Shown here one piece after another: positions 3,604-52,645 of a DNA stretch of 64,000 bases. Each line of letters starts with the position of its first letter. The first letter of the stretch is position 1. The position numbers were made by a program, and so were the translations under genes. A model generated the notes under the pieces. That model saw nothing but the letters and a program-made list of their open reading frames with translations. It was not told the origin of the DNA and did no database searches. The DNA comes from Candidatus Omnitrophota bacterium (GTDB taxonomy: Bacteria > Omnitrophota > Omnitrophia > Omnitrophales > Aquincolibacteriaceae): assembly GCA_022711115.1 (NCBI GenBank), contig JAKLFP010000001.1, positions 389,183 through 453,182 on the forward strand. The letters are read 5' to 3'.

Positions 3604-3610
3604 ATTCCAC

Positions 3611-11948: not shown

Positions 11949-11959
11949 GAACGTTTGCC

Positions 11960-28453: not shown

Positions 28454-28457
28454 AAAG

Positions 28458-32708: not shown

Positions 32709-32975
32709 TCAGAAAAGAGATAGGGGTAAAAGTTTTAATAAAATCCAAAGGATGCCTGCTATGGCAACCATAAAAAGTATCAGCAGAAGGCCTTTGAATA
32801 TGCGGAAAACCCAACGGCCTGCATACATAAAAATGAAAATAAAAAGCGAGATCTTAAAATGAATCCCGGCTTCACTTGAAAAATTTTTTTCCAAAAAAAT
32901 AAAAAGCGACAGTGCGGTGATAAAAAAACCAATAAGGATTAGTCCCTCTCTCACCAAGGCTTTTTTAACATTCAT
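32709..32975 (-). CDS. small integral membrane protein
   Basis: 88 aa, three hydrophobic helices; no other support. Confidence 0.3.
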   Translation of the reverse strand: MNVKKALVREGLILIGFFITALSLFIFLEKNFSSEAGIHFKISLFIFIFMYAGRWVFRIFKGLLLILFMVAIAGILWILLKLLPLSLF

Positions 32976-33171: not shown

Positions 33172-36100
33172 TTAGAAGTCGAACCGTATCGTACCGTAAT
33201 AATTCTGGCTGGAGTATTTTTCTTTGATCTCCCAATCCCAGTTCGCCGTCAGCGTCATATTCCCTTTGCTTAAAAACGCGATCTCGCCGCCAAACAGAAT
33301 GCCGCTTCGCGCCGGTTTCGGACCATTTGTTTTGAAGGAAGGGCCGCCCCCCTGGAAAGAGGAAGTCGTTTCAAACTTGTCGCCGATATAATCATAAAGC
33401 CAGGCAACCTTGAGAGCGGGAATAAGCGTCCCGATGTTGGGCGACACATCTTCCAGCAGGAACGGATAAGCCAACTTCATCCCGAGCCCTTGTTCCAGAA
33501 AGTTGTAGCCCTGGCCGTTTACGTTCAGATTTAAAGCCCCTGCCCCTTTTTCTTTGTAGGCATTCTGGTAAAGATAGCTGTATTGAAGGGACGTAAACGG
33601 AGTCACCTGTAAATTCCTCGTGATATCAAAAAGAAAAGTGTAGCCTAGTTCGTAGCGGGTGGAATATTCCTGCGCATTAGAATCGTTCGTGGCAGTACGG
33701 CTGGTCGAACCGAGATAGATCGAGCGGCTGCCGTCATAGTGATTTTGTGTAAAGGCGGCCATACCGTCCACGTACCACGAATTTTCCCATGGGTCACGAA
33801 ATCCGCCTTTGACGCCTCTTTCAATTTCCGGTTCCTTGTCAAGAAGGAGAGAGTCATAACTCCCGTAAATCTGAGCCTGCCAGCTGTTAATGCTGGTTTT
33901 GGGGGTCCCGGGAGTTCTGGATCTTACATTCCCGTAACCATAGCCGCCCGCAAGGCCAAGTCTCGTGTGGCTGCCGAAAAGCTTATCGATGCCAAGTGTA
34001 GTCCCAAAAGTATAGACCCGGTATCCCTCGATTCCGTGATTGGCGTCTTGATGCGCGAAGCTTCCCAGTCCCTGCGCCCAAAAACCGATTCCATGAAATC
34101 CATCTCCTGTTGAAATGCCGGTACGCACACCCGCCTGCCGGTTGCTTACCATGCCATAAAACTGGTTAGCAATTTCGCGGGCACCTTGCATCGCTGCGCC
34201 ATTCGGGTCTGGGTACAGGGTATCGAGCGCATCTTCCAACTGCGTGCTGTCAAGACCATCCAAGGTCGCAAGGACAGAAAGCATATCGCTGTTTGTGGTC
34301 GTTTCACCGACAACTTCAAGGGCTGTTCCTGCCGCTGCGGCGTTCCCGTTTGTCGCGACATTCGCATAGGGCTGGGCACGATTTGCCGTCAAAATAAGAT
34401 CTCCTGATGAAGCGGCGGCAGAGAAGGTCAAGTGCGATGAGTTGGTTGTGATGGTTGACGGAACATTCATTCCCCCGCCGCCGGCACCGCCGGCGCCGTG
34501 AATGACTGTGAATGTGGTCCCGCTTGGAATATAAGTATTATCAATGGTCAAATTCAGCGTGCTGGTTGTGTTTAAAGCCGCGGTCCCGGTCGCGGCAATA
34601 TTGCCAAATACGGAGGCGCTGTTGATGGTCAGGTTCATTGTGGTGCTCGCCGCAGAGGCATCATAATTACCGTTCACGGTCAATGTATTCGCCCCCAAAG
34701 CAACCCCTCCGTTGGCGGCCACCACAAGATTTCCTGTCACCGCATGAGAACCGCCCATCGAAAGCCTGGCGCCTTTGTTGATCGTTGTGGTGGTTGCATA
34801 GATGTTATGGTTAAGAACAACCGTACCTCCGTCCGTAACTCCATCGCCAAGATTGACGGCCTTCAGGTGATTGGCCACTCCTGTCGCGCCAAGATCCCCG
34901 CCTGTGGCAGAACTTCCTAAAAAGGTCAGTGTTCCGGCCGTCCCTCCTGATGTATTTGTCACTGTTCCAAAAATGCCTTTTCCGGCCGCAAGTTTGACGG
35001 TCCCGTCCGCAGCGAAAACAACATTGGAAGAGGCTGTCGCGCTTCCCACATTCCCGTTAAAATTCGCCGTTCCTGTGCTGTCTATGGTTGTCGTTGTGGC
35101 ATAAATATCTGCGCTAAAAGTAGCCGCCACCAAAGCGGCATCCATTTCAATGGCTTTCAGCCGCGCCCCACCGGTCCCCACTTGTCCCGTGATGGTTGAA
35201 GTCCCTCCGGCCAATTCCAAAGTCCCTGTGTTCGCTGTAGCGGTGGTGACCGCGGCGGTAATGTTTTTTCCGGAAGCTAGTATGACCGTATTGTCCGCCC
35301 CATAATTCAAAGTTGTGCCGGTCAAGCTTCCGTTTAAATTCACATCTCCTGTACCGCTCACGGTGGTCGTAACAGCGTAAACATCGTTTTGGAATGTGGC
35401 GGCAGCCGCCAGGGCAACATCAACCTCGATAGCCTTCAAACGATTCGTAGTAGTCCCTATTTGTCCGTTAATAGTCGATCCGTCTCCAGCCTGCAAGGTT
35501 CCTGTGTTGGTTGTACCGGTTGTGATGGCGGCTGTAATTGTTTTATTGTCAGCCAAATTGACGGTGCCGTCTCCGGCAAAATTCAAGGTTGTTCCGGTCA
35601 GGCTGCCATTCAAGTCGACCGTCCCGGTGCCAGTCACGGAAGTAGTCGTGGCATAAACATCGCCTGCAAAGGTTGCCGTCTTCCCCGTCGCTCCCGCATT
35701 GACTGCCGCGAGAGCTGCATTTCCCGCCGCGCCTACCTGCCCGGTTACGGTGGAGGTCCCGGAAAGTGTTAATGTTCCGGCCGCGCTTCCGGAAGTGTTT
35801 GTTACCGCCGGAGTAATGTTTTTGCTGTCCGCAAGAACGACTGTTCCGTTGCCTCCAAAAACTAATCCCGAAGAAGTTGTCAGACTTTCATTCAGATTTA
35901 ATGTTCCTGCGTTGACGGTGGTGGCGCCAGTATAAAGATTTGCTCCGGCTAAAGTAAGCGTGCCGGCGCCGGTTTTGGTGAGTCCTCCGGTTGTCGCACC
36001 CGAAGCTCCGCTCAAGGTCAGATTATTGGTGGTAATATTAAAAACAGCCGTTTTCCCTGCAACGATAGTGAAGTTGCGGTCCGTACTGGCAGTGCTTCCA

Positions 36101-37812
36101 GTATAAGAAAGAGTGCCTCCGTCAAACACCAGATTGGCTGCAGCATTTGTGGCCTGCCCCAGGTTACCTGCTTCTCCACCATTGCCAATCGTTCCGACGC
36201 TTACGGTCCCATTGCTAAGAGTGGTCACCCCTGAAAAAGTATTGGTGCCGGTTAAAACAAGCGTCCCAGTCCCCGATTTGGTCAAACCTCCTGTCCCGCT
36301 CATGATGCCGGCATAGGTCGTGTTGTTCGTATCGCCAGTCGTCAGGGTGAAGCTTTGCAGATTAACATTCCCGCCACTTGCGCCGCCGCCCGCTAGAGAT
36401 CCTATCGTTTCATTTGCATTCAACTGGAGCGTGGCGCCAGCGGTATTATTTAAAGAAACCGCTCCGCTATCAGCAATGGCCGCACCGCCCGTCAGAACCA
36501 AGGTCCCCCCGCTGACAGTCGTTGTCCCGGTATAAAGATTGGTGCCGCTTAAGGTCAGCGTGCCTGCGCCTGTCTTCGTCAAGGCGCCGTTCGTGGCAAC
36601 CGCCGAGCCTGACATCGTCAGGTTATTTGTTGTGACATCGATCGTCGCTGTCTTGTCGGTATTGATGGTAAAATTGCGGTCCGTGCTTGCGGTAGTGCCC
36701 GTATATTGAAGTGTTCCTCCGTTAAAAACCAGGTTAGCTGCTGCGTTCGTAGCCTGGCCTAAATTTCCAGACGCGCCACCATTTCCAATGGTCGCAACGC
36801 TTAAAGTCCCAGCCGTCATGGTCGTCACACCGGTAAAGGTATTAACGCCGCTCAAAGTCAGCGCCCCGCTTCCTGCTTTAGTAAGGCCAACAGTATCGGC
36901 ACTGCCTCCGCTGCCGTTCTCTATAACACCAGAAAAGACCGTCGAGGTGTTGTCTCCTCCTGCCGTTAAAGTCACAGAGCTTAACGTCCCGCTTCCGCTG
37001 GTAACAGTTCCATTCCCCGCCAATGAACCGATGGTTTCACTAACGCCATTCATGTCCAAAAACGCCCCCCCAGCAACCGTGACTGCGCTAGCATTTGAAA
37101 TCACGTCTGCCGTACCAAGTGACAAAGTTCCTGCACTGATGGTCGTTGCACCAGTGTAGGTATTAGCTCCGGATAGGGTTAATGTCCCTGCCCCGCTTTT
37201 GGTCAAAGCCACTTGACCGCTGGCGCCATCGTCAATAATGCCTCCGATATCGACGCCGCCTGCGGCTGAGGTGACTGCTAGAGTCATAAGATGGGAAGCT
37301 CCTCCTGAGTCTGAACCCGTGATATCTCCATCAATTGTCAGTGAGTTTGTCGTGCTGTTGTTGGTCACGGCAAAAGTTTGGGTCGATCCCTCTGTGCCAA
37401 GAGTCAGATTTGCATCAAATGTTTGGTCTTGATTAACATTGGCATTCATCGTGATAGCGCCGCCGTTAGCTAGTATGAGCGTATCAGCTCCGGCTCCTCC
37501 CGCGCCAATCGTGTAGGCCGCAATAGGGCCATGGGCAGCCCCTCCAGGATCATCATTATCGAAAAGAATATTTAAAACCGTTTGGGTTCCAGCAAGATCA
37601 ATCGTCGTATTTCCATTTCCTGTGCCGTTAAATGTCGCTGTATCTGCGGCGCCCGGCACGGATCCGGGTGCATTGCTCCAGTTTCCGGTGGTATCAGACC
37701 AGGTGGCATCTGTTGTTCCCACCCAGTTGGCACTGGCACCAAAAACGGGAACAGGAACCGCAAGGCTTATAGCGAGAATAGAAAGGATCGCGATGAATTT
37801 TTTCATAATCAA
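33172..37812 (-). CDS. type Va autotransporter (1546 aa) with long beta-helical passenger domain and C-terminal beta-barrel
   Basis: Signal peptide; many repeats like GAGTLTLSGANTYTGATTISAGTLSLG; C-terminal barrel ending ...RFDF; high GC. Confidence 0.7.
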   Translation of the reverse strand: MIMKKFIAILSILAISLAVPVPVFGASANWVGTTDATWSDTTGNWSNAPGSVPGAADTATFNGTGNGNTTIDLAGTQTVLNILFDNDDPGGAAHGPIAAYTIGAGGAGADTLILANGGAITMNANVNQDQTFDANLTLGTEGSTQTFAVTNNSTTNSLTIDGDITGSDSGGASHLMTLAVTSAAGGVDIGGIIDDGASGQVALTKSGAGTLTLSGANTYTGATTISAGTLSLGTADVISNASAVTVAGGAFLDMNGVSETIGSLAGNGTVTSGSGTLSSVTLTAGGDNTSTVFSGVIENGSGGSADTVGLTKAGSGALTLSGVNTFTGVTTMTAGTLSVATIGNGGASGNLGQATNAAANLVFNGGTLQYTGTTASTDRNFTINTDKTATIDVTTNNLTMSGSAVATNGALTKTGAGTLTLSGTNLYTGTTTVSGGTLVLTGGAAIADSGAVSLNNTAGATLQLNANETIGSLAGGGASGGNVNLQSFTLTTGDTNNTTYAGIMSGTGGLTKSGTGTLVLTGTNTFSGVTTLSNGTVSVGTIGNGGEAGNLGQATNAAANLVFDGGTLSYTGSTASTDRNFTIVAGKTAVFNITTNNLTLSGASGATTGGLTKTGAGTLTLAGANLYTGATTVNAGTLNLNESLTTSSGLVFGGNGTVVLADSKNITPAVTNTSGSAAGTLTLSGTSTVTGQVGAAGNAALAAVNAGATGKTATFAGDVYATTTSVTGTGTVDLNGSLTGTTLNFAGDGTVNLADNKTITAAITTGTTNTGTLQAGDGSTINGQIGTTTNRLKAIEVDVALAAAATFQNDVYAVTTTVSGTGDVNLNGSLTGTTLNYGADNTVILASGKNITAAVTTATANTGTLELAGGTSTITGQVGTGGARLKAIEMDAALVAATFSADIYATTTTIDSTGTANFNGNVGSATASSNVVFAADGTVKLAAGKGIFGTVTNTSGGTAGTLTFLGSSATGGDLGATGVANHLKAVNLGDGVTDGGTVVLNHNIYATTTTINKGARLSMGGSHAVTGNLVVAANGGVALGANTLTVNGNYDASAASTTMNLTINSASVFGNIAATGTAALNTTSTLNLTIDNTYIPSGTTFTVIHGAGGAGGGGMNVPSTITTNSSHLTFSAAASSGDLILTANRAQPYANVATNGNAAAAGTALEVVGETTTNSDMLSVLATLDGLDSTQLEDALDTLYPDPNGAAMQGAREIANQFYGMVSNRQAGVRTGISTGDGFHGIGFWAQGLGSFAHQDANHGIEGYRVYTFGTTLGIDKLFGSHTRLGLAGGYGYGNVRSRTPGTPKTSINSWQAQIYGSYDSLLLDKEPEIERGVKGGFRDPWENSWYVDGMAAFTQNHYDGSRSIYLGSTSRTATNDSNAQEYSTRYELGYTFLFDITRNLQVTPFTSLQYSYLYQNAYKEKGAGALNLNVNGQGYNFLEQGLGMKLAYPFLLEDVSPNIGTLIPALKVAWLYDYIGDKFETTSSFQGGGPSFKTNGPKPARSGILFGGEIAFLSKGNMTLTANWDWEIKEKYSSQNYYGTIRFDF

Positions 37813-38295: not shown

Positions 38296-38389
38296 TGGCG
38301 GAGAGGGGGGGATTTGAACCCCCGGTGACGCTTTCGCGCCACAGCGGTTTAGCAAACCGCCGCACTAAACCGGGCTATGCGACCTCTCC
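38296..38389 (-). tRNA. tRNA-Ser (anticodon GCU)
   Basis: Manual fold: acceptor GGAGAGG..., anticodon stem GCGGT/ACCGC with loop TTGCTAA, long variable arm, T-arm GGGGGTTCAAATCCCCC, encoded CCA. Confidence 0.85.
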
Positions 38390-38768: not shown

Positions 38769-39902
38769 ATGGACGAACAACCTATTCTCAGTATTATTCT
38801 CCCCTGTCTTAACGAAGAAGCCGGCCTGGAATTCTGTCTGCCGAAGATCCGCACGGTGATTGAACGTATGAAAATTCCTGCTGAGGTCATTGTGGTGGAC
38901 AACGGTTCCTCGGATCAAAGCGTTTCAGTTGCACAAAAGTTCGGCGTTCGCATTGTAAAGGAACCGCTGCAAGGTTATGGCTCAGCCTGCATGAAAGGGT
39001 TTGCGGTTGCTAAGGGAAAGTATTTTTTCCTGGCAGACGCGGACGGAAGCTATGACTTTGAGGAAATACCGAATTTCTTGCGCCTTTTAGAACAAAATTG
39101 GGATTTTGTTGTTGGTAATCGTTTTAAAGGGAATATCGAAAAAGGGGCCATGCCTTGGTCTCACCGCCATATCGGTAATCCTGTGCTCTCGTCTATGTTG
39201 CGTCTCTTTTTTAAAACCACCATTCATGATGTTCATTGCGGCATGAGGGCCATCCGCAAAACCGCTTATCAAAGGCTGACGCTTATGACAACGGGCATGG
39301 AATTCGCATCGGAGATGATTGTGATGGCCTTAAAAAAAAATCTTCGTGTCACGGAGATTCCCATCCACTACCATGTCCGCAAAGGCACGTCCAAACTGAG
39401 ACGCCTCTCGGACGGGTGGCGTCATCTGAGATTTATGCTTCTTTATAAACCTTTTGTCCTGTTTTTTTTACCGGGTGTTTTTTTATTGGCCTGCGGCATT
39501 ATTTCCATGCCTTTTTTTTATCTTGAAGAGCTTGAGGTGTTTCATCTTCAGTTTTACTATCACCCCATGTTCCTTTCCTCGCTTATGATTATCATGGGGT
39601 ATCAACTGGTTCTCTTCTCTTTATTCGCGAAGACATATGCCATTCATCACTTAGGAGATACTCCTGTTTTGGAAAAATTTTACCGTTATTTTAATATCGA
39701 GCGCGCTTGCGCTTTTGGATTGCTGACAGCCGCCCTGGGATGTGTTATCTACCTTGGGATCTTCATGAAATGGCTGCGCACTAATTTCGGGGCGTTGAAC
39801 GAGGTCAAAAATTCTATCTTGGGCCTGACCTTCATGGTCCTTGGGGTTCAAACTGTTTTTTCTGCTTTTATGCTCAGCATCTTGGGAATCAAGAAAAAAT
39901 GA
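38769..39902 (+). CDS. GT2 polyprenyl-phosphate sugar synthase (Dpm1/ArnC/GtrB-like) with C-terminal TM helices
   Basis: LSIILPCLNEEAGL...VIVVDNGSSDQS...FLADADGSYD then 4 TM helices. Confidence 0.7.
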   Translation: MDEQPILSIILPCLNEEAGLEFCLPKIRTVIERMKIPAEVIVVDNGSSDQSVSVAQKFGVRIVKEPLQGYGSACMKGFAVAKGKYFFLADADGSYDFEEIPNFLRLLEQNWDFVVGNRFKGNIEKGAMPWSHRHIGNPVLSSMLRLFFKTTIHDVHCGMRAIRKTAYQRLTLMTTGMEFASEMIVMALKKNLRVTEIPIHYHVRKGTSKLRRLSDGWRHLRFMLLYKPFVLFFLPGVFLLACGIISMPFFYLEELEVFHLQFYYHPMFLSSLMIIMGYQLVLFSLFAKTYAIHHLGDTPVLEKFYRYFNIERACAFGLLTAALGCVIYLGIFMKWLRTNFGALNEVKNSILGLTFMVLGVQTVFSAFMLSILGIKKK

Positions 39903-39907
39903 AGAAC

Positions 39908-41716
39908 TTATATTCCTTCCGCGCCGTTGCGACCGTTCGCCGCAGGCTTACCTAAAAGGGAGTCTGTCGCAGTTAAAAACTCCCGGGCTTTTTGAAGAAT
40001 GTTTTGGGCTCTCTGGTTGTTCGGGTCTAATTTGAGAACAAGTTCGGCGATTTTAACAGCTTCCGCATACTGCCCTCCCGTAAGACAGAATAAACCCAGA
40101 TCATTGATCCGCGTTCGAAGAATGACAGAGCTTCGGACACTAATTTTTTTATAAATAGACGCTTCAGCAAAAGCCTTTTCATAATCTCCGAGAAAAACAT
40201 AGGCGTAAATCAAATTCTGGCGGGCGACAGGTATGTTTGGATTGATATTCAAAGCCTGGACAAAGCAGGAGGCCGCTTTCTCATATTCTCCTAAATCCCC
40301 AAAAACAGCCCCCAGATTTACAAGAATCTGCGCCCTGTCATTATTCTCCGGCATCTTCAGCTTCAGGGCCTTCAGATAGTTAGCGGCTGCTTTTTGATAA
40401 TCTTTCTCCGCCCGGTACACGTGCGCAAGGTTGGCGTAAGGTCTTGCCTTGGCAGGAGATTTTTTGACAGTGTCTTCCCATAACCTCACGGCACTTGTCC
40501 AAACGTTATTCCTTTGATAGGTCAGAAATGAAAAAATCAAAATCATCCCGCAAAGAAATGCAGCGCCAATGCGAGGATTCTTTAAAAGAGAAAAAAGTCC
40601 CGCCGTCACGACAAGCACAAACCCAACTGACGGAAGGTAGAGACGATGTTCGAACATGACATCCCGAATAGGAAGAATGCTTGAAGTAGGCGCCAGAGTA
40701 AGAAAAAACCAGAGGATGCCGAACCCAGCCAGAGGATGCCGGCGAATCAGCTTAAATCCTGAAAAAAGCAAGACTAAGAGACAAAAAAGGCTAAGCAGGG
40801 TCGGACCATCGAACCATCCCGGGGACAAAGGAAAATCATAATCGATATTTTGACGGAAAGGAAAAAACAGCAGGCTTAAGTATTTCATGATAACGCGGAA
40901 TTGTGTCAGAAGATAGGTGCGGCCGGTAATCCCTAAGTCGTCATGAAGCGTAAAGATATTCGGAAGCTTAAAAGAAAAAAAAACGAAAATACTTATTAAA
41001 AAAATCGTTCCTAGAAGCAGCCAGGACTCTTTTAGTTTTGCTGTTCCTTTTTCTTTTGCATGCGCTCCGACGGAAATACCCCAAAAAACCGCTTCGCTTA
41101 AAAAAACTGACGCCGGCAAAGTAAAAACGGTTTCTTTTGTGAACATCCCCAGAATCGCTGCTGCCGCTGAGATAAAAAAAATCCCTGCTTTTTTCAAAAC
41201 CGGCCCTGCGATGATCCTCGCTTTCAGATAACAGCAAAGCGCAGACAGGTAGAAGACCGCAGCCAGGCACTCGAACCTTTGTGAAATGTAAGTGACAGAT
41301 TCTGTTTGAATGGGGTGGGACAAAAACAGCCAGCCGCATAGAAGGGCGATGGTTTGCCTGTGTTGCGAGCAAGGCCCGTCGCGCATCCGCGGGGTCTGAA
41401 ACAACAGCAGTACAAGCCAAACAACGCAAAGGGCTGTAAGGAGATGAATGGTCAGGTTCACGACATGATAACCAACAACATCGAAACCGTGAAAATAATA
41501 GTTTAAAGCGAAAGAAAAAAAAGAAATAAACCGTTTCCGGTATTCCACATTATTCCACAGGGTGTGGCTTTGCAGGCTCTGGATCGCCCGGTTCGTCTGG
41601 ATGAATTTTTCATCGTCAAAGACAAAAGGGGCTTTCAGGGTATTAGAATAGAGGAGGATACCCCATAAGCAGATTCCGATTAGATAAAAGGTGATTGTCT
41701 TTTTTGGGTTTTTCAT
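39908..41716 (-). CDS. TMTC/PMT-like GT-C membrane glycosyltransferase (DUF1736-type) with C-terminal TPR repeats (paralog of 14721-16508)
   Basis: APFVFDDEKFIQTN, YHVVNLTIHLL motifs, ~10 TM helices, TPR repeats at the C-terminus. Confidence 0.55.
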   Translation of the reverse strand: MKNPKKTITFYLIGICLWGILLYSNTLKAPFVFDDEKFIQTNRAIQSLQSHTLWNNVEYRKRFISFFSFALNYYFHGFDVVGYHVVNLTIHLLTALCVVWLVLLLFQTPRMRDGPCSQHRQTIALLCGWLFLSHPIQTESVTYISQRFECLAAVFYLSALCCYLKARIIAGPVLKKAGIFFISAAAAILGMFTKETVFTLPASVFLSEAVFWGISVGAHAKEKGTAKLKESWLLLGTIFLISIFVFFSFKLPNIFTLHDDLGITGRTYLLTQFRVIMKYLSLLFFPFRQNIDYDFPLSPGWFDGPTLLSLFCLLVLLFSGFKLIRRHPLAGFGILWFFLTLAPTSSILPIRDVMFEHRLYLPSVGFVLVVTAGLFSLLKNPRIGAAFLCGMILIFSFLTYQRNNVWTSAVRLWEDTVKKSPAKARPYANLAHVYRAEKDYQKAAANYLKALKLKMPENNDRAQILVNLGAVFGDLGEYEKAASCFVQALNINPNIPVARQNLIYAYVFLGDYEKAFAEASIYKKISVRSSVILRTRINDLGLFCLTGGQYAEAVKIAELVLKLDPNNQRAQNILQKAREFLTATDSLLGKPAANGRNGAEGI

Positions 41717-41806: not shown

Positions 41807-43048
41807 TTAGGCTAGAACTTTTTCTTTGGTCTCTCTTTTCTTCGTTTTTTCATATTCACAAACCCATGCGGGCTTTTCATCCATTTTGTCCGGAAAGTAC
41901 TTTTTGAGTCGGCTGTAAACAAAAGGGAGTCTATCTTTGAGGCCCTTCCCGCAAAAACCCAGAAATCTTATATAGGCATCTTTTATGTTTTCCAGAACTA
42001 TAGAAATGTTCTCATCCCTTTGCAAAAAATAATTTTTTACCTCCTGATGCAATTCAGGTTTGTCGGAGGCCCAAACTAAAACACCGTTTTCATCCTTTTT
42101 TACATCCGCATGAAAATCAAAATTATGGTTCATTAAAATTACATTTCGCTCGAAGTAACGTCTTTTTTCAAGGTCCCCGTGCCATAAACAAAGCGCTACT
42201 CCTGGAGTAAACGATACGCTCCCGTTTACTCTAGCATAAACGGCCTTTGCCCATGAGTCCCTGTCTTTTTTAAATGACTCGCCCACGAGTAACATTTGGG
42301 CGATCTCATCGTCTATTCCATAAAAGGCATAGGCCATAATACGATCTCCGCTTCCTATGATCAGCCGGTCGTAAAAACCAAACTCATCAAGAATTTCTTT
42401 TCTTGCGGCCCAGGCTCCCCCAACAACCGGCTTGTTTTTTGATTTCAACATGCACCTCGCATCTGTCTGGGTATAAACAAACCCGTCGCGTTTCTGTCCG
42501 TTCCCTATCCCTTCAGGGATATGCTCCGAGCTTTTGATATCAAACTGTCCTTGCTTCAAACGAACGAGCTGGGAGTAGGGCTGAACGACAAGATATTTTT
42601 CAAGCAAGCTGGCGGTTTCTTTTAACCAATCGTCCTTTTTTAAAAGAATATCACAGTCGAACCATGCGACCTTGTCGCAGTCGTTTGGCAAATGCTTTAA
42701 TCCGATATTGAGTAGCGCCTCTTTTTCCCAAAGAATATGTTTTTTGTCCACTCGCAGTTGAATCAAGCTGTCTGTTTCGTTTTTTTTGATTTCAAAAGGG
42801 TTGTCCCCGTAAGAAAGCTCGACCGTCAGGAGGTTGAGTCCTTGCTTTTTGCTGGCGTTGCGAAATCTTACATAATTCTCATGTTTATTTTTGAAACCAA
42901 CAGGATTAAAAAAAGCGGTTATGCCCCAAAATGTTCCTGTCAATTTTTGAACTCGTTCAGTCGCAGCCTTTAGGAGATCATCATTGTTCTTTGTCCCGAA
43001 CCTATCAGAAACTTCTTTTATTGCTTTCTTCTTATCAGGATACATTTT
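41807..43048 (-). CDS. hypothetical protein, possibly a nucleotide-sugar-dependent transferase (start adjusted to MYPDKKK...)
   Basis: No clear motif; acidic DCDILLKKDD segment; embedded in the glycan locus. Confidence 0.35.
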   Translation of the reverse strand, partial: KMYPDKKKAIKEVSDRFGTKNNDDLLKAATERVQKLTGTFWGITAFFNPVGFKNKHENYVRFRNASKKQGLNLLTVELSYGDNPFEIKKNETDSLIQLRVDKKHILWEKEALLNIGLKHLPNDCDKVAWFDCDILLKKDDWLKETASLLEKYLVVQPYSQLVRLKQGQFDIKSSEHIPEGIGNGQKRDGFVYTQTDARCMLKSKNKPVVGGAWAARKEILDEFGFYDRLIIGSGDRIMAYAFYGIDDEIAQMLLVGESFKKDRDSWAKAVYARVNGSVSFTPGVALCLWHGDLEKRRYFERNVILMNHNFDFHADVKKDENGVLVWASDKPELHQEVKNYFLQRDENISIVLENIKDAYIRFLGFCGKGLKDRLPFVYSRLKKYFPDKMDEKPAWVCEYEKTKKRETKEKVLA

Positions 43049-43064
43049 CCGGGTTTTTCTTCCT

Positions 43065-44966
43065 TTAGTTGCAACCGTGACACATGTTATGCTCTCGTTT
43101 CTTGCCCATTTTTTCATTCTCTTTATAAATTTTACTTTCAAAAATTTCCTTCAAGGGCTTGCCAAAGGCGTTGCCTAAGTTAAGCCTGCTTAATTGGTCG
43201 TGACAGCAGATAGTAACCTTTCCATCCCATTTGACTGTAGGAAGCAAGAAGGCGCATTCCTTTTTTTTAGGCTCGATCCTTTTCTTTTCATCATAAGTAA
43301 AACGCAAATAATCTTTCATTTCATCGGAAACAACGTTTTTAAAAAACTCTTCGCGCTCCTCTGCCGTTGCCTCTGAGGGAACGCAAAACCCGGTAGGGCT
43401 TATCCTTGCCTGCATGGGATCGCCTCCCAATCTGGCGATCAGTTTCGGCAAGTCCTTCCTTTGATGAAAGTTGTCCTTGGTGACATTCATTTTGACCAAA
43501 ACGCGTTCGGGATTATTTTTCGTCAAATCAAAAATTTCTCTCAGATTTTGACATACCAAATCATAGTCGCTTCCCCTCATAATCCGTTCATGCGTTCCTC
43601 TGTCCGTGCCGCCGATATTAACAAAAATGCGCGACACAGGACAGCTTGCCAGTTTCTTCATGTCGATATGGCAACTCAGATTCGTATGAACATCACCGAC
43701 GTTGATCCCTGCCTCATCGGCATAACGGACCATTTCAAAAAAATCCGGGTGAAGCAACGGCTCGCCTCGATGATAAGGAATAATCTTGATCTTGTTTTTA
43801 ATAAAAAACGAACGATTCAGGTTGATGATTTTTTTAAAGTTTTCAAAGTCCATTATCCCGATATCTTTTTTCTCAGAAAAGTACATCCAGCACCAAACGC
43901 AGCGGGCGTTGCACATACTGCTGGTTTCTATGGCTATAGTTTTGTTGCGGTATGGGAAAAATGTTTTTGTAATGGTTTTTTCTGCTTTTAAAAAAAATTT
44001 GAAACCTTTCTCCCAAAACCAGCCTCTGCTCTGATGGTTTGTCGCGTATATCGGGTAATGGAAACCAAAAGCGCCGCTTAGCGTCCCCAAACCCTGAAAA
44101 ACTTCCAAAACACTTCCCGTTTTTGAGCGTTTCTTAAAAACATCGCAAAGAAGATGAAGAGATCCTTTCGCGACAAGTATGAACCCTTCGATTGTTTTCT
44201 TAAAAAAGAATCGGACAACATGCTTGCTTGTGTTTTTTTGATACGATACTCTCAAGCTTCCCCCTCGAAAATAGCGCACGGCTAACCATTTCATGTTCGT
44301 TCGTTCTTTCAAGAACCTTTCATAAACAACAGCTTCTCCTGCGTGAATGATCCGGTATCCCAGCCGATGCAATTTCCGGAAAAATTGCACGTCGCCGCCC
44401 CCTATTTGGGAATCCTTTTTATCAAATAAAAAGTTGATTTCTTTAAAAACTTTGGCACAAATCAAAACATTATTCGTATAAGCCTCGTGATACGGCGTGC
44501 CTGTTAAAAGATGTTTTTGCTGAGGAAAATAGCGGACAAACTCTGCGGAAGCGCACGAGTCGAACGTCCGAATGGTAATGCCTTTTACAACGTCGGCGTT
44601 ATACTCCCTTTGAACAAATAAGAGTTCGTCCAGCCATGTCGGCGTCGCTTCTTCATCATCGTCGATGAAAGCAATGAATTCTGTTCTTGGTGAAACCGAG
44701 GCTATGGCCTTATTTCGAGCCTGACTAATCCCGCGTTCGTTCTCGACGATGTATCGGATCGGCCATGGCGTCTCCAAGGCGATTGCATCGCATATACCTT
44801 GGGTAACTTCGCTGGGTTCATTATCAACAACAATGATCTCTATTTCCGGTATGTTGTTTTTGAGAAACGTCAGCCCGTTGAGGCTTTTTAACAACCTCCT
44901 TAGTTCCTTCGGTCGCTTATAAGTACAGACGCAAAGGGAAACAAATGCCTTTTCGCTCACAGACAA
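43065..44966 (-). CDS. bifunctional GT2 glycosyltransferase / radical SAM (SPASM/twitch-like) fusion protein
   Basis: N-terminus VSLCVCTYKRP...IEIIVVDNEPS...FIDDDE; C-terminus CNARCVWC plus ...DGKVTICCHDQ...GNAFGKPLKEIF...CHGCN, paralogous to 6572-7294 and 29396-30229. Confidence 0.65.
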   Translation of the reverse strand: MSVSEKAFVSLCVCTYKRPKELRRLLKSLNGLTFLKNNIPEIEIIVVDNEPSEVTQGICDAIALETPWPIRYIVENERGISQARNKAIASVSPRTEFIAFIDDDEEATPTWLDELLFVQREYNADVVKGITIRTFDSCASAEFVRYFPQQKHLLTGTPYHEAYTNNVLICAKVFKEINFLFDKKDSQIGGGDVQFFRKLHRLGYRIIHAGEAVVYERFLKERTNMKWLAVRYFRGGSLRVSYQKNTSKHVVRFFFKKTIEGFILVAKGSLHLLCDVFKKRSKTGSVLEVFQGLGTLSGAFGFHYPIYATNHQSRGWFWEKGFKFFLKAEKTITKTFFPYRNKTIAIETSSMCNARCVWCWMYFSEKKDIGIMDFENFKKIINLNRSFFIKNKIKIIPYHRGEPLLHPDFFEMVRYADEAGINVGDVHTNLSCHIDMKKLASCPVSRIFVNIGGTDRGTHERIMRGSDYDLVCQNLREIFDLTKNNPERVLVKMNVTKDNFHQRKDLPKLIARLGGDPMQARISPTGFCVPSEATAEEREEFFKNVVSDEMKDYLRFTYDEKKRIEPKKKECAFLLPTVKWDGKVTICCHDQLSRLNLGNAFGKPLKEIFESKIYKENEKMGKKREHNMCHGCN

Positions 44967-45589
44967 TGCTCCTCATAGTGTTTTTGCTTTTTGTTTTTCT
45001 TTTCTCTTAGGTTTTCTAAGGCTTGGAGGGTCTTGTTGCGCACCTGACAAAAGAATAACTCTAAAGGTCCTGCCGGACCGCTTATGTTCTCATGGGGAAA
45101 GGCAGCTTCCGGGATTTTCTTGCCTAGAAAGGGGCATAAGACTTCCCACCCTTCGCCGCCGCATATATTCAGGAACAGGAGGTCTTTTTCCCTGCCTTTA
45201 AAGTATTTTTTGACGTCTTGGACGTGCGCCTCGTAGGCCATGGCAAATTTCTTCTTGTCAAAAAAATGTGCCCCAAATTGTTCGGCCCGGTATTTTAACA
45301 AAACGTCTTTCTCAGTTTCAGAAAAAACTTTTTTTCTGGAGAAATATTTTTTGCAGGACCTTAGCCATGCGTTTTTGTCTCTGACTGTTAAAATAAATTT
45401 AGACTTCGGATATTTTTTGTCATACTCCGGATATCGGGTTTGAAAAGGCATGTCACAAAACGCCTCGAATCTCTCAAGATCTTTTTCAGGGTCTAATGAA
45501 AAATGGAGGGTTTTAAAACCCAAGATTTCCAAGGCCTTCCGCAAACTGTAGGTGCCTGTTTTCGCCAATCCGATACCAAATATTTTCAT
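44957..45589 (-). CDS. sulfotransferase-family protein
   Basis: IFGIGLAKTGTYSL resembles the 5'-PSB loop (K/R-T/S-G-T-T/S) of sulfotransferases. Confidence 0.5.
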   Translation of the reverse strand: MKIFGIGLAKTGTYSLRKALEILGFKTLHFSLDPEKDLERFEAFCDMPFQTRYPEYDKKYPKSKFILTVRDKNAWLRSCKKYFSRKKVFSETEKDVLLKYRAEQFGAHFFDKKKFAMAYEAHVQDVKKYFKGREKDLLFLNICGGEGWEVLCPFLGKKIPEAAFPHENISGPAGPLELFFCQVRNKTLQALENLREKKNKKQKHYEEHCL

Positions 45590-45739
45590 CCGTTATTTTC
45601 CTAAAAATCTCTCTTTGTTTTAAACGGGGTTTTTGTTTCCTGCGCCACTCATGCGGTTTTATTGATCATCCATATTCGGATGTTTCCGCTATTTATCCGC
45701 ACTTTTTAAGAAACTAAAAACTGCGCTTTCTTTCCCGGG

Positions 45740-46678
45740 TTAAGAAGGTGGCAGTTTTTTGAAAAGATTTGTGATGCGACTTAATTTTATTTTAGCTTCG
45801 ATTCTCGAAGGAAAAAAAGAGTCTTTTTTTAGGTTAAATACAATCGCAAAAAGCTGTTTTGGTTTCCTGATAAAGCTCATTGCTTCGCACAAAACGATCC
45901 ATCCTTTCCGGATGCTGTTCTGCTTTGAATCCATGACCGCATTGGATATGCCTTCCCAGACGGCTCGTTTTTCAAACCAGTCCCTGCAAAGTCTTTCCGC
46001 AGGAATATGATGTTGAATTCTGATATCAGGGGCATAGATAATATCGTATCCTTGCTGTTTTAGCTGCGTCTGTGCAAAAGCCTCTTCCCCTGATAAAAGA
46101 TTATCCCCTTTCCTGCCTAAGTTCGGCAGAAAACCACCTATTTGCTCCAAAGATTCCTTTACAAAAGCCATGTTCCCACCAAAGAGCCTTGCTCGATCCA
46201 AAGACGCCGGTTCATCGCCATAGTCCAATACAGAAAGATATTTCAAAAGGTCATCTGTAATCCACGAAGCCCGTGTGCCGCCCCAAATAGGCTCTATTTT
46301 CCCACCGACAGCCCCGGCGTTTGCATGGGTTTCGAAGGCTTTTAGTATATTTGCAAGCCATAATTTATCCGCAATCGCATCATCATCCATAAAGGCCAGG
46401 TATTTTCCTGAGGCTTTTTTCACGCCGGCGTTTTTCGCGCGGGAAAGACCCTGGAGAGGCTCATAAAGATAGGTGATATGAACAGACTTTTTTTGAAAAT
46501 CCTGTACGATTTCTTTTGCTTTTCCAACAGGCCCGTTCTCAACCACAATAATTTCATACTGTTCTTCCGGCAACGATTGTCCGGTCAGGCTGAGAAGGGC
46601 CTCCGTTAAAAAAACATCTCTCCCGCAGGTGCAAACAACAACGCTGATGCGTGGTAAAAAATCATTTGTATTATTCAA
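45740..46678 (-). CDS. family-2 glycosyltransferase
   Basis: ISVVVCTCGR...YEIIVVENGP...FMDDDA. Confidence 0.7.
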   Translation of the reverse strand: MNNTNDFLPRISVVVCTCGRDVFLTEALLSLTGQSLPEEQYEIIVVENGPVGKAKEIVQDFQKKSVHITYLYEPLQGLSRAKNAGVKKASGKYLAFMDDDAIADKLWLANILKAFETHANAGAVGGKIEPIWGGTRASWITDDLLKYLSVLDYGDEPASLDRARLFGGNMAFVKESLEQIGGFLPNLGRKGDNLLSGEEAFAQTQLKQQGYDIIYAPDIRIQHHIPAERLCRDWFEKRAVWEGISNAVMDSKQNSIRKGWIVLCEAMSFIRKPKQLFAIVFNLKKDSFFPSRIEAKIKLSRITNLFKKLPPS

Positions 46679-46701
46679 TGATGTTTTCCAGAAGTTTAGG
46701 T

Positions 46702-47466
46702 TTATTTAATAGAGGTTGTTTGCTCTTTTTTAGAAAAAACGTAGTCGTTGACCACATCGTCCGGGTTGCCGCTTTTTTGTATCTGTCCTTTTTCGATCCA
46801 AAGGGCCCTATTGCAATACTTCCGAATGATTCCCAGCCTGTGGCTAGCCAGAATGACCGCTGAGCTTTTTCGAACAAATTCATTCAGTTTTTGCATCGCT
46901 TTTTCCTGGAAATCAATATCTCCGGAACTGCCAAGGGCCTCATCAATTAAAAGAATATCCGGATTATGCTTTTCAATGCTATGAATGGTCGTTGAGAAAG
47001 CCAGCCGGTTTATCATGCCCGAAGAAAACTGATAGACCTTGATATGGGTATACTCTTCGAGCCCAGAAAAAGCGATGATCTCATCGAGCTTCCTTCGAAG
47101 GTCCTGCGGGGACAGCCCTCTCATGGTTCCGACAAGCTGTATATTTTCCAGCATCGTCAGCTTGGGAACCAATCCTTGGGCATAGCCCGCCAAATAAACA
47201 GCCTTTCCGTTTATCTCTACAGAGCCCCCATCGGGAAGGTAGATCCCGCCTAAAATTCGCAGCAACGTTGTTTTTCCGGAACCATTGCGCCCGACGAGAC
47301 CGATGATCTCTCCGGAGCCGGCTTCGAACGACACTTCTTGAAGCGCCTGTCGCTCCTGTTTTTCCCCGGCCTTTAAAAGCCTTAAAAAAGCGGCTAAAGC
47401 TCCATCGTTATGGGCGATGTCCAGATCGAATTTCTTGGATAAATTACAGACTTTGATTCGAATCAA
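46702..47466 (-). CDS. ABC transporter ATP-binding protein, polysaccharide/teichoic-acid export type (Wzt/TagH-like)
   Basis: Walker A GLVGRNGSGKTTLL; signature FSSGMINRLAFS; Walker B ILLIDEAL. Confidence 0.75.
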   Translation of the reverse strand: MIRIKVCNLSKKFDLDIAHNDGALAAFLRLLKAGEKQERQALQEVSFEAGSGEIIGLVGRNGSGKTTLLRILGGIYLPDGGSVEINGKAVYLAGYAQGLVPKLTMLENIQLVGTMRGLSPQDLRRKLDEIIAFSGLEEYTHIKVYQFSSGMINRLAFSTTIHSIEKHNPDILLIDEALGSSGDIDFQEKAMQKLNEFVRKSSAVILASHRLGIIRKYCNRALWIEKGQIQKSGNPDDVVNDYVFSKKEQTTSIK

Positions 47467-47475
47467 GTTGTTCTC

Positions 47476-48252: not shown

Positions 48253-48273
48253 TTTCCCTTTACCTTTTTCTAG

Positions 48274-49395: not shown

Positions 49396-49398
49396 TTT

Positions 49399-51559: not shown

Positions 51560-51562
51560 TTT

Positions 51563-52462: not shown

Positions 52463-52645
52463 TAGTTCTATAATAATTTGGTTGTCAATTTAGTGGAACT
52501 ACTTGTTAAAAGTTTGACTGCGCCGGCTTTATATAAATTGAAGATCTTGGCACGCCTTTTTCTTTTTCGGTCGAATCGCTTTACGCGCCAAAACCGTCGC
52601 TGCGCTAAAGCCAAAAAAGCGCCGTCAGTTTATCCCGCTGTTTCC

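What the first reader, a model, noticed from the sequence alone, without database searches (positions are those of the whole stretch)
38769..41716. Dpm1-like polyprenyl-phosphate sugar synthase adjacent to a TMTC/PMT-like GT-C with TPR tail: candidate protein O-glycosylation module
The GT2 with four C-terminal TM helices (38769-39902) is the architecture of Dpm1/ArnC/GtrB enzymes that make polyprenyl-P-sugars. The convergent neighbour (39908-41716) and its paralog (14721-16508) have the multi-TM DUF1736-type core with the FxFDD and HxxNxxxH motifs and a TPR tail. Eukaryotic TMTC proteins with this architecture are protein O-mannosyltransferases using Dol-P-Man. Together these genes may form a periplasmic lipid-linked sugar transfer system onto protein or glycan acceptors.
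Basis: partly seen in the sequence, partly recalled or inferred. Interest (0 to 1): 0.6.

Follow-up and report, generated by a model that had tools for sequence, protein, structure and literature searches.

The report
Bacterial TMTC-like glycosyltransferase with its donor synthase
Two neighbouring genes in an uncultured Omnitrophota bacterium encode an enzyme that loads a sugar onto a membrane lipid carrier and a bacterial relative of the animal TMTC enzymes that probably transfers that sugar to a target outside the cytoplasm. The pairing is credible and conserved in close relatives, but the family was already known from sequence and the target (protein or surface glycan) is unknown.

Summary
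**Observation.** It is confirmed. ORF 38769-39902(+) is a GT2 enzyme with four C-terminal hydrophobic helices. Its best solved relative is Pyrococcus dolichol-phosphate-mannose synthase. ORF 39908-41716(-) and its 36%-identical paralog 14721-16508(+) have an 11-helix membrane domain followed by TPR repeats. Both carry the FxFDD and HxxNxxxH motifs.

**Homology to TMTC.** Pfam (including DUF1736) does not match the membrane domain. A profile of the bacterial family nevertheless aligns end to end with animal TMTC1-4 N-domains (hhalign probability 100%, E 5e-39). An AlphaFold model of the domain matches only GT-C enzymes (AglB, ArnT, Pmt, STT3).

**Gene pairing.** It is conserved. Three related loci from other samples keep the order glycan cluster, GT-C, GT4, then a convergent 377-380-aa GT2. 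Polyprenyl-phosphate-type GT2 genes are the only recurrent neighbour across 83 family loci.

**Most likely function.** This is a lipid-linked monosaccharide transfer module acting in the periplasm.

**Open question.** The acceptor is unresolved. TMTC homology and the TPR tail favour protein. Operon embedding in an ABC-transporter glycan locus favours a glycan.

**Novelty.** Prokaryotic TMTC homologs were already noted in 2021, so this is a new member of a known kind. It is moderately interesting.

The parts
38769..39902 (+). GT2 polyprenyl-phosphate sugar synthase of the DPMS / AglJ / ArnC type. The catalytic GT-A domain spans residues 7-220 and is followed by four C-terminal transmembrane helices.
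   Evidence: PF00535 matches at E 2.9e-28. NCBIfam hits are AglJ 4.5e-41, Dol-P hexose transferase 9.5e-30, PpgS 1.9e-22 and ArnC 1.6e-12, all below the equivalog cut-offs. PDB 5mlz DPMS matches at 1.2e-15 with the DAD motif aligned. There are four hydrophobic segments. The orthologs, one of which (L082) is 71% identical, carry PF26629 GT2_TM_C.
40502..41716 (-). Membrane (GT-C) domain of the TMTC-like protein, residues 1-405, about 11 TM helices. Conserved extracytoplasmic-loop residues are D34/D35, R62, Y83-H84..N87..H91, H134-P135..R147, K194-E195..T199, D292, and E356-H357-R358-x-Y360.
   Evidence: The alignment shows invariant columns at these residues. The family profile hits TMTC1-4 at E 3e-37 to 1e-21, and hhalign gives E 5e-39. 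The AF2 model has pLDDT 86-90. Foldseek finds AglB, ArnT, Pmt4, STT3, DPY19, Emb and Pmt1/2 at probability 0.96-1.0 for all but one chain (EmbA 7bvc_A, 0.87).
39956..40492 (-). C-terminal TPR domain of the TMTC-like protein, residues about 409-587, about 5 repeats. It is predicted to be periplasmic.
   Evidence: Pfam TPR_1, TPR_2 and TPR_8 match. The AF2 model shows helix pairs over residues 409-587. Topology is inferred from 11 TM helices, the positively charged N-terminus, and all conserved motifs falling in the odd-numbered loops.
14721..16508 (+). Paralogous TMTC-like GT-C/TPR protein (595 aa). It is divergent from a second glycan-type cluster (1233-14522).
   Evidence: It is 36% identical to the 602-aa protein, E 3e-101. 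phmmer matches TMTC4 at 3.3e-18. It has TPR repeats. Its neighbours are GDSL, O-methyltransferase and GT2 genes.
41807..53766 (-). Co-oriented upstream glycan-assembly cluster. The GT-C gene is its last member. It contains an unknown 444-aa protein, a GT2-radical SAM/SPASM fusion, a sulfotransferase, a GT2, an ABC ATPase, an ABC-2 permease, a GT4, two unknowns, a GT2 and one more unknown.
   Evidence: Pfam assignments are. The GT4 at 48274-49395 is 71% identical to the GT4 that directly follows the GT-C gene in L082.
33172..37812 (-). Autotransporter with PATR repeats (1546 aa, 24% Ser+Thr). This is context only.
   Evidence: PF03797 matches at 9.3e-52 and PATR at 1.2e-37. It is adjacent to the GT2 gene here and in L082/L083, but not in L164 or L165.
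38296..38389 (-). tRNA-Ser(GCT), lying between the autotransporter gene and the GT2 gene.
   Evidence: Found by ARAGORN and Rfam.

Best explanation
The two convergent genes form a lipid-linked monosaccharide glycosylation module. It is attached to a surface-glycan locus of an Omnitrophota bacterium.

**Step 1 (inferred from homology).** The 377-aa GT2 takes a nucleotide sugar at the cytoplasmic face. It makes polyprenyl-phosphate-sugar, as DPMS, AglJ, ArnC and PpgS do.

**Step 2 (inferred, component not identified).** The lipid-sugar is flipped to the periplasmic face.

**Step 3 (inferred from homology, fold and conserved residues).** The 602-aa TMTC-like GT-C enzyme binds the lipid phosphate and a metal. 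The residues involved are K194/E195, D292 and E356-H357-R358-x-Y360. It uses the loop-1 D34/D35 pair to transfer the single sugar to an acceptor that its periplasmic TPR domain selects or docks.

**Acceptor.** I favour Ser/Thr of secreted or envelope proteins, as for TMTC1-4 and the P. aeruginosa pilin transferase TfpW, which has the same architecture. This preference is only slight over the exported glycan made by the adjoining operon. The identity of the sugar is unknown.
For: **GT2**
- It matches PF00535. Its best solved relative is P. furiosus DPMS, with the DAD motif aligned, followed by ArnC.
- The nearest NCBIfam models are all polyprenyl-phosphate glycosyltransferases.
- It has four C-terminal TM helices.

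**GT-C**
- hhalign gives probability 100%, E 5e-39, over 383 columns.
- The window protein is 30% identical to zebrafish TMTC2 over residues 19-404. The TMTC sequences came from PMC7801869 supplement.
- The same profile finds no solved GT-C chain at E<=10, so TMTC is by far the nearest characterised family.
- TMTC motifs M1 (DD), M4 (KETxxT), M5 (D[WY]) and M7 (E-x-R-x-Y-x-P-S-x-G) are invariant or nearly so.
- The AF2 model has pLDDT 86-90 and matches only GT-C enzymes.

**Linkage**
- In L082/L083, L164 and L165 (GT-C 48-53% identical), the order GT-C, GT4(/GT2), then a convergent 377-380-aa GT2_TM_C recurs. The outer flanks differ between loci. For L082, the GT2 and the GT4 are each 71% identical to the window's.
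- Across 83 family loci the only recurrent neighbour family is polyprenyl-phosphate-type GT2. It occurs in 16 loci by clustering and 19 with tblastn. Best models are PpgS, AglJ, ArnC and PgfS.

**Protein acceptor**
- TMTCs act on proteins (PMC7801869, PMC6801728).
- TfpW is a GT-C with 11 TM helices, a DDX motif in loop 1 and a periplasmic TPR domain, and it glycosylates pilin (bioRxiv 10.1101/2020.04.19.049825).
- The family is multi-copy: 115 genes in 79 loci.
- Outside this clade its genes are scattered among unrelated neighbours. 120 flanking genes matched 189 Pfam families, and only 6 were GT2.
Against: - No enzymology or glycoproteomics exists for any bacterial member.
- Pfam DUF1736 and PMT_2 do not match.
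- TMTC motif M2 (SHKSYRP, modelled as the sugar-binding site) is reduced to a single Arg. The acidic residue of M3 is not conserved.
- The TPR tail has about 5 repeats, shorter than in TMTCs.
- The two genes are on opposite strands, so they are not co-transcribed.
- 80 metagenome loci with 39-59%-identical GT2 homologs contain no TMTC-like gene. The synthase family therefore also works with other partners.
- No GtrA-like flippase is present in the window.
- Against a protein acceptor: in the closest orthologs the GT-C gene overlaps its GT4 or RgpF neighbours by 4 bp inside glycan operons with ABC exporters. This is the arrangement of glycan-decorating systems such as GacI/GacL.
Confidence: 0.5

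Rival explanations
1. The chemistry is the same but the acceptor is a glycan or lipoglycan. The pair would be a Gtr / Gac / CsbB-YfhO-type 'multi-component transmembrane glycosylation system'. It would add a side-chain sugar, from polyprenyl-P-sugar, to the polysaccharide built by the adjoining operon and exported by its ABC transporter. The TPR domain would dock the enzyme to the export or modification machinery rather than to a protein substrate.
For: - The GT-C is the last gene of a co-oriented glycan operon with Wzm/Wzt-type ABC transporter genes.
- In L082 and L164 it overlaps the downstream GT4 by 4 bp. In L165 it overlaps the upstream RgpF gene by 4 bp, and a fused ABC exporter lies just upstream.
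- The GT-C, GT4 and GT2_TM_C genes form a conserved core, while the rest of the cluster varies as O-antigen or capsule loci do.
- No other multi-TM transferase or ligase is present in the cluster.
- The paralog also borders a glycan cluster.
- A GDSL-TPR fusion in L167 shows that TPRs are attached to putative glycan-modifying enzymes in these clusters.
- Precedent: GacI makes GlcNAc-P-Und and the GT-C GacL transfers it to polyrhamnose (bioRxiv 10.1101/180810; review PMC8035078).
Against: - To my knowledge (not tested here), the characterised glycan-acceptor GT-C enzymes (ArnT, GtrC, GacL, YfhO, Emb/Aft) have no TPR domain. GT-C enzymes with TPR tails (TMTC1-4, TfpW) act on proteins.
- The nearest characterised homologs are protein O-mannosyltransferases.
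- Most family members elsewhere are not in glycan clusters.
- No GtrA- or Wzx-type flippase is in the window.
Confidence: 0.35
2. The GT-C/TPR protein is the terminal en-bloc transferase (oligosaccharyltransferase or ligase) of the cluster. It would move the ABC-exported, polyprenyl-diphosphate-linked glycan onto a protein or lipid acceptor. The adjacent GT2 would serve another purpose.
For: - It is the only periplasm-facing multi-TM enzyme in the cluster besides the ABC permease. No WaaL / Wzy_C-like protein was found.
- GT-C oligosaccharyltransferases (AglB, STT3) are among the top fold matches.
- TfpW has been proposed to act as an oligosaccharyltransferase.
Against: - By sequence the protein belongs with TMTC. 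HHpred in PMC7801869 places TMTC closest to ArnT, and TMTC, ArnT and PMT all use monophosphate-linked single sugars.
- The conserved linkage to a polyprenyl-monophosphate-sugar synthase is not explained.
- Many family members are far from any glycan cluster.
Confidence: 0.08
3. The adjacency has no functional meaning. The two genes are merely neighbours inherited together in one lineage, and the GT-C takes its donor from a synthase encoded elsewhere or is catalytically inactive.
For: - The genes are convergent and not co-transcribed.
- GT2 homologs elsewhere lack TMTC-like neighbours.
- Two close orthologs (P0010, P0015) sit next to murB with no GT2 nearby.
Against: - The pairing survives in four loci whose outer flanks differ: autotransporter and tRNA-Ser, autotransporter, TPR/spermine-synthase-like, and folB.
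- Polyprenyl-phosphate-type GT2 is the top recurrent neighbour family-wide.
- All predicted catalytic residues are invariant.
Confidence: 0.07

Closest known systems
Animal TMTC1-4 (CAZy GT105), ER protein O-mannosyltransferases of cadherins and protocadherins
   Same: - The N-terminal membrane domain is homologous end to end (hhalign E 5e-39; up to 30% identity).
- It has 11 TM helices.
- These motifs are collinear, at nearly the same residue numbers: FxFDD in loop 1, YHxxNxxxH, HPxxTExV..R, KE(T/Q)xxT, D[WY] in loop 4, and ExRxYxPSxG before TM10.
- The TPR domain is C-terminal, on the non-cytoplasmic side.
   Different: - The organism is bacterial, so the donor lipid would be a bacterial polyprenol rather than dolichol.
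- The SHKSYRP motif (modelled sugar contact) is lost apart from its Arg. The acidic residue of RxD is not conserved.
- Pfam DUF1736 does not match.
- There are about 5 TPRs rather than 8 or more.
- The gene sits in a glycan operon beside its own donor synthase.
- Neither activity nor acceptor has been tested.
P. aeruginosa TfpW, the type IV pilin D-arabinofuranosyltransferase
   Same: [quoted passage not shown] It uses a lipid-linked sugar to O-glycosylate a protein.
   Different: - tfpW lies directly downstream of pilA. Here no pilin gene is adjacent, and the Tad-type genes are about 11 kb away.
- Sequence relatedness to TfpW could not be tested because no TfpW sequence was available in the tools.
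Type III dolichol-phosphate-mannose synthase (P. furiosus DPMS, PDB 5mlz) and AglJ / ArnC / PpgS polyprenyl-phosphate glycosyltransferases
   Same: It has a GT2 GT-A catalytic domain with a DAD motif, followed by a membrane domain. Both its length (377 vs 374 aa) and its four-helix C-terminus match PfDPMS.
   Different: - The scores are far below every NCBIfam equivalog cut-off, so sugar specificity cannot be assigned.
- The TM region does not align at sequence level.
Multi-component transmembrane glycosylation systems (GtrA/B/C, CsbB-GtcA-YfhO, GacI/J/K/L)
   Same: The logic is the same: a GT-A polyprenyl-P-sugar synthase paired with a GT-C transferase, encoded with an ABC-transporter or rhamnan-type glycan cluster.
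   Different: - No GtrA- or Wzx-type flippase was found.
- The GT-C belongs to the TMTC clade and carries TPRs. To my knowledge none of those glycan-acceptor enzymes does.

Membership tests
GT-C glycosyltransferase superfamily | Polytopic membrane protein with 8-13 TM helices | tested here: met
   The AF2 model shows 11 membrane helices. Hydropathy finds 8-11 segments.
GT-C glycosyltransferase superfamily | Conserved acidic DxD / DD / DE motif in the first extracytoplasmic loop | tested here: met
   D34 is invariant and D35 is conserved in at least 90% of 49 and of 24 aligned homologs.
GT-C glycosyltransferase superfamily | Fold similarity to solved GT-C structures | tested here: met
GT-C glycosyltransferase superfamily | Uses a polyprenyl-phosphate-linked sugar donor | not testable with these tools
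   This is inferred only, from the conserved Lys/Glu/Asp/Arg residues that model as phosphate and metal ligands in TMTC.
TMTC family (CAZy GT105) | N-terminal membrane domain homologous to TMTC1-4 over its full length | tested here: met
   hmmsearch of the family profile against 12 TMTC N-domains gives E 3e-37 to 1e-21, covering profile positions 14-410 of 419. hhalign gives probability 100%, E 5e-39.
TMTC family (CAZy GT105) | Conserved motifs M1-M7 of Eisenhaber et al. 2021 | tested here: inconclusive
   M1 (DD), M4 (KETxxT), M5 (Asp kept, Trp replaced by Tyr) and M7 (E-H-R-x-Y) are kept. M2 (SHKSYRP) is reduced to R62 plus SFxLN. M3 keeps the Arg but not the Asp/Glu. M6 was not examined.
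TMTC family (CAZy GT105) | C-terminal TPR domain on the non-cytoplasmic side | tested here: met
   TPR Pfam matches cover residues 400-572. They follow TM11. Sidedness is inferred from the odd helix count and from the placement of the conserved loops.
TMTC family (CAZy GT105) | Match to Pfam PF08409 (DUF1736) | tested here: not met
   The membrane domain has no Pfam match at E<=10. None of the 120 best homologs has it in precomputed Pfam. This model covers only the loop-4 segment, which is diverged here.
TMTC family (CAZy GT105) | Protein O-mannosyltransferase activity | not testable with these tools
   This needs biochemistry or glycoproteomics.
Polyprenyl-phosphate glycosyltransferases (GT2: DPMS / AglJ / ArnC / GtrB / PpgS) | GT-A GT2 domain with a DxD motif, most similar to known members | tested here: met
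   Supported by PF00535, 5mlz at 1.2e-15 with DAD aligned, and AglJ, Dol-P hexose transferase, PpgS and ArnC as the top NCBIfam models.
Polyprenyl-phosphate glycosyltransferases (GT2: DPMS / AglJ / ArnC / GtrB / PpgS) | Equivalog-level match that would assign the sugar | tested here: not met
   All NCBIfam scores (141 bits or less) are far below the curated cut-offs (325-529 bits).
Polyprenyl-phosphate glycosyltransferases (GT2: DPMS / AglJ / ArnC / GtrB / PpgS) | C-terminal membrane anchor (four helices in type III DPMS) | tested here: met
   There are four hydrophobic segments over residues 229-374. PF26629 GT2_TM_C is recorded for the 377-380-aa orthologs.
Three-component Gtr-type glycosylation system | GtrA-type (or Wzx-type) flippase encoded with the GT-A and GT-C genes | tested here: not met
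   No small 3-4-TM ORF lies next to the pair. The only one in the window is an 88-aa ORF at 32709-32975. A flippase encoded elsewhere cannot be excluded.
TfpW-type pilin glycosyltransferases | Gene immediately downstream of the pilin gene | tested here: not met
   The neighbours are the GT2 gene and a 444-aa protein of unknown function. The Tad-type genes are at 27449-28615.

The most novel reading that the evidence does not exclude
These proteins are bacterial TMTC-type protein O-glycosyltransferases, part of a very large and unstudied periplasmic protein-glycosylation family with tens of thousands of sequence clusters. In this Omnitrophota lineage one member works with a dedicated DPMS-type donor synthase to modify Ser/Thr-rich surface proteins such as the adjacent autotransporter. 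If so, the animal cadherin O-mannosylation enzymes would descend from a bacterial envelope-protein glycosylation system. A simple two-gene bacterial model for TMTC enzymology and structure would also become available.
Probability: 0.3. Interest if true: 0.65.

Novelty: new member of a known kind. Interest (0 to 1): 0.42.

Why it matters
TMTC1-4 are disease-linked human enzymes. Their catalytic activity had still not been demonstrated directly as of the 2021 analysis (PMC7801869), and no solved TMTC-like structure turned up in the PDB searches here.

This analysis shows that a huge bacterial family is collinear with them, with most of the proposed catalytic and phosphate/metal-binding motifs invariant. 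At E<=1e-3 the family has 92,245 cluster representatives at 50% identity. In one clade, a member sits next to its likely donor synthase.

That gives a compact, testable two-gene system for three questions:
- Which lipid-linked sugar is used.
- What the TPR domain recognises.
- Whether bacterial members glycosylate proteins or glycans.

For genome annotation, these proteins should not be left as 'tetratricopeptide repeat protein'. They should also not be named 'protein O-mannosyltransferase' without evidence.

Tried and rejected
- **Pfam and NCBIfam on the membrane domain alone.** No match, even at E<=10.
- **phmmer and profile searches against PDB sequences.** Only TPR proteins were found with the full-length query. 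With the membrane profile nothing meaningful was found; the only hit at E<=10 was a spurious RNase match at E 2.4.
- **Foldseek with the full-length model.** The results were swamped by TPR structures, so a membrane-only model was built.
- **Reverse linkage test.** 80 metagenome loci with GT2 homologs contain no TMTC-like gene. The pairing is therefore not a property of the GT2 family as a whole.
- **Autotransporter as a conserved partner.** Rejected. It is adjacent only here and in L082/L083.
Rejected. All high-probability fold hits are GT-C glycosyltransferases. Transporter hits have probability <0.6 and TM-score about 0.15.
- **Search for a GtrA-like flippase.** None was found.
- **Promoter and terminator scan of the junction.** Nothing informative.
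- **Literature search for characterised bacterial TMTC homologs.** Only the 2021 remark that they exist was found.
- **A cyanobacterial 'Ogt' pilin glycosyltransferase.** It is a GT41 enzyme and is unrelated.

Full report
**1. What is at the coordinates**

- 38769-39902(+), 377 aa.
- 39908-41716(-), 602 aa.
- 14721-16508(+), 595 aa.

The first two are convergent, with five bases between their stop codons. The 602-aa protein is identical to a deposited protein of a Candidatus Omnitrophota MAG, annotated only as 'tetratricopeptide repeat protein'. The window also holds dnaA, dnaN, gyrB, gyrA and serS at its right end. It is therefore chromosomal and lies near the origin of replication.

**2. The GT2 gene**

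- Pfam GT2 covers residues 8-170 (E 2.9e-28).
- The best NCBIfam models are AglJ (4.5e-41), dolichyl-phosphate hexose transferase (9.5e-30), PpgS (1.9e-22) and ArnC (1.6e-12). All score far below their equivalog cut-offs.
- Its closest solved relative is Pyrococcus furiosus dolichol-phosphate-mannose synthase 5mlz (E 1.2e-15). Residues 7-220 align to 25-243, and the DAD motif aligns. ArnC structures come next.
- Hydropathy gives four C-terminal membrane segments.
- The 377-380-aa orthologs in related contigs carry Pfam PF26629 GT2_TM_C in precomputed annotation.

The sugar cannot be assigned.

**3. The membrane-TPR proteins**

The two paralogs are 36% identical (E 3e-101).

Standard libraries see only the TPR tail.
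- Pfam and NCBIfam match only the TPR region.
- The membrane domain alone matches no Pfam model, even at E<=10.
- Sequence and profile searches of the PDB with the membrane domain also find nothing meaningful.

A homolog search with the membrane domain found more than 2,800 relatives. All of the longer ones have TPR tails, and JGI names some of them 'protein O-mannosyl-transferase'. Alignments show a set of invariant residues:
- F31, D34 and D35
- R62
- Y83-H84, N87 and H91
- H134-P135 and R147
- T193-K194-E195 and T199-L200-P201
- Q289-N290 and D292
- E356-H357-R358, Y360-L361-P362 and G365

To test TMTC homology directly, I took the TMTC1-4 N-domain alignment from the supplement of Eisenhaber et al. 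2021 (PMC7801869) and ran three comparisons.
- hhalign of the two alignments gives probability 100%, E 5e-39, over 383 columns.
- The window protein itself is 30% identical to zebrafish TMTC2 over residues 19-404 (BLASTP 3e-25). The paralog gives phmmer 3.3e-18 to TMTC4.

The motifs line up collinearly (TMTC sequences; alignment).

| TMTC motif | TMTC sequence | Window / family sequence |
|---|---|---|
| M1 | FVFDD | FVFDD |
| M2 | SHKSYRPL..LTFRLNY | ..KRFISFFSFALNY (only the Arg and the SFxLNY part survive) |
| (no M number in ref.) | YHLVNxxLH | YHVVNLTIH |
| M3 | HPIHTEAVxGxVGRAD | HPIQTESVTYISQRFE (Arg kept, acidic residue not conserved) |
| M4 | KE(T/Q)GxT | KETVFT |
| M5 | LLLxPxxLxxDW | LLFFPFRQNIDY |
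| M7 | AERVLYMPSMGY | FEHRLYLPSVGF |

Structure prediction supports the same conclusion.
- An AlphaFold2 model of the whole protein has pLDDT 90.5, and the membrane-only model has pLDDT 86.
- Foldseek with the whole protein is dominated by TPR proteins.
- Foldseek with the membrane domain finds AglB, ArnT, Pmt4, STT3, DPY19, EmbA/B/C and Pmt1/2. Probabilities are 0.96-1.0 for all but one chain (EmbA 7bvc_A, 0.87).
- Transporters and receptors score probability <0.6 and TM about 0.15.

The refutation scenario (O-antigen ligase or transporter) therefore does not apply. The protein is a GT-C enzyme of the TMTC clade (CAZy GT105 per PMC6801728).

For topology, all conserved motifs fall in the odd-numbered loops, and the N-terminus is basic. 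After 11 helices the TPR domain (residues about 409-587, about five repeats) should therefore be periplasmic. This is an inference.

**4. Are the two genes a module?**

*From the GT-C side.* A scan of species-representative genomes found at least 587 relatives, and 79 loci were kept. Most are Omnitrophota. Others are Nitrospirota, Desulfobacterota, Hydrogenedentota, Armatimonadota and others.
- I clustered all ORFs from these 79 loci plus the four ortholog loci fetched by then (83 in all). The family itself is present 115 times, and 23 loci have tandem copies.
- The only recurrent neighbour is a GT2 family, found in 16 loci. With tblastn hits of the window GT2 added, the count is 19 of 83.
- The best NCBIfam models for these GT2 proteins are PpgS, AglJ, Dol-P hexose transferase, ArnC and PgfS. 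They are therefore polyprenyl-phosphate glycosyltransferases.
- Otherwise the immediate neighbours are very heterogeneous. Across 120 flanking genes there are 189 Pfam families, and only 6 are GT2.

*From the GT2 side.* 80 metagenome loci with 39-59%-identical homologs contain no TMTC-like gene, and the positive control worked. The synthase family therefore has other partners elsewhere.

*The closest GT-C orthologs* (46-56% identity) are the most informative.
- L082/L083, L164 and L165 all show the order glycan genes, GT-C, GT4(/GT2), then a convergent 377-380-aa GT2_TM_C. The glycan genes include RgpF, sulfotransferase, large GT4/GT2 proteins and an ABC exporter.
- There are 4-bp overlaps between GT-C and GT4, or between RgpF and GT-C.
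- The outer flanks differ: autotransporter, TPR/spermine-synthase-like, and folB.
- L082's GT2 and GT4 are each 71% identical to the window's GT2 and to the GT4 at 48274-49395. The window therefore has six extra genes, including the ABC-2 transporter, inserted between GT-C and GT4.
- Two orthologs sit next to murB without any GT genes.
- One ortholog sits near a short DPMS-like GT2 and pilMNO.
- One ortholog sits in a glycan cluster with a GDSL-TPR fusion.
- A neighbour-joining tree places the murB-linked genes inside the clade that has the glycan/GT2_TM_C context. That context is therefore probably ancestral for the clade.

I conclude that the GT2 and GT-C pairing is real for this clade. At family level it is enriched but not obligatory.

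**5. Mechanism**

*Shown.*
- The identity of the two enzyme classes.
- The conserved residues.
- The fold.
- The conserved gene linkage.

*Inferred.*
- The GT2 makes a polyprenyl-phosphate monosaccharide.
- This lipid-sugar is flipped. No GtrA-like flippase is in the window.
- The GT-C transfers the sugar in the periplasm, using D34/D35 with K194/E195, D292 and R358 as phosphate/metal ligands, by analogy with the TMTC models.

The acceptor is the open point.

*For a protein acceptor.*
- The nearest characterised family acts on proteins.
- The only characterised bacterial enzyme with this exact architecture, TfpW, glycosylates pilin.
- The family is multi-copy and mostly outside glycan clusters.

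*For a glycan acceptor.*
- In this clade the gene is an internal member of glycan operons with ABC exporters. This arrangement parallels GacI/GacL and other multi-component transmembrane glycosylation systems.
- No other periplasm-facing transferase is encoded in the cluster.

My estimates are about 0.8 that the pair is a lipid-linked monosaccharide transfer module. For the acceptor: about 0.45-0.5 protein, about 0.35 glycan or lipoglycan, and about 0.1 en-bloc transfer.

The autotransporter (24% Ser+Thr) is a possible but weakly supported target.

**6. Comparison with what is known, and novelty**

[quoted passage not shown] KEGG/JGI-style annotation already calls some of them protein O-mannosyltransferases.

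I found no experimental work on any bacterial member. The family is very large: 92,245 representatives at 50% identity with E<=1e-3, and 20,754 with E<=1e-30.

This finding is therefore a new member of a known kind. It adds one useful observation. In one Omnitrophota clade, the TMTC-like gene is conserved together with a type-III-DPMS-like synthase and a GT4 at the end of surface-glycan loci.

**7. Verdict**

The enzyme classes and the pairing hold. The DUF1736 Pfam match fails. The protein-acceptor claim is untested and has a serious rival.
- Interest is moderate (0.42).

Noticed in passing
window 43065-44966 (-); also 6572-7294 (+) and 29396-30229 (-): A 633-aa protein fuses a GT2 domain (residues 10-143) to a radical SAM + SPASM domain (residues 347-633). 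Two further stand-alone radical SAM/SPASM ORFs lie beside GT2 genes in the same window. This suggests radical chemistry on a sugar or glycan in these clusters.
   Followed up: no
window 19909-25458 (-): An 1849-aa protein has a single N-terminal membrane segment, and its only Pfam match is one PASTA domain. The 637-aa ORF on the opposite strand (19840-21753) is probably spurious.
   Followed up: no
L010:1-9521 (Omnitrophota SAG AM-312-C06): At least five TMTC-like genes lie head to tail within 9.5 kb. 23 of 79 related loci carry tandem paralogs, which points to rapid diversification of this family.
   Followed up: partly
L167:6595-8094: A 499-aa protein fuses a GDSL/SGNH-type domain to TPR repeats, in the same cluster as a TMTC-like gene. 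TPRs therefore seem to be attached to several putative periplasmic glycan-modifying enzymes in these bacteria.
   Followed up: no
L084-L163 (loci around GT2 homologs): In 12 of 80 loci the GT2_TM_C-type synthase sits near a polytopic membrane protein of about 595 aa that has no Pfam match. This may be another, unclassified GT-C-like partner.
   Followed up: partly
window 32709-32975 (-): An 88-aa ORF with three hydrophobic segments lies just downstream of the autotransporter gene. It is the only small multi-TM ORF in the window, and no GtrA-like flippase was seen.
   Followed up: no
window 41807-43141 (-) and 43065-44966 (-): The mechanically called ORFs overlap by 77 bases. The TTG start at 43141 of the 444-aa protein of unknown function is probably called too far upstream.
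   Followed up: no
L006, L011, L046, L080: A B12-binding radical SAM gene (471-505 aa) lies directly beside the short DPMS-like GT2, near a TMTC-like gene, in L006, L011 and L046. In L080 it also abuts the GT2, and a methyltransferase and an amine oxidase separate the GT2 from the GT-C. Homologs of this radical SAM gene occur in 7 of 83 loci overall.
   Followed up: no
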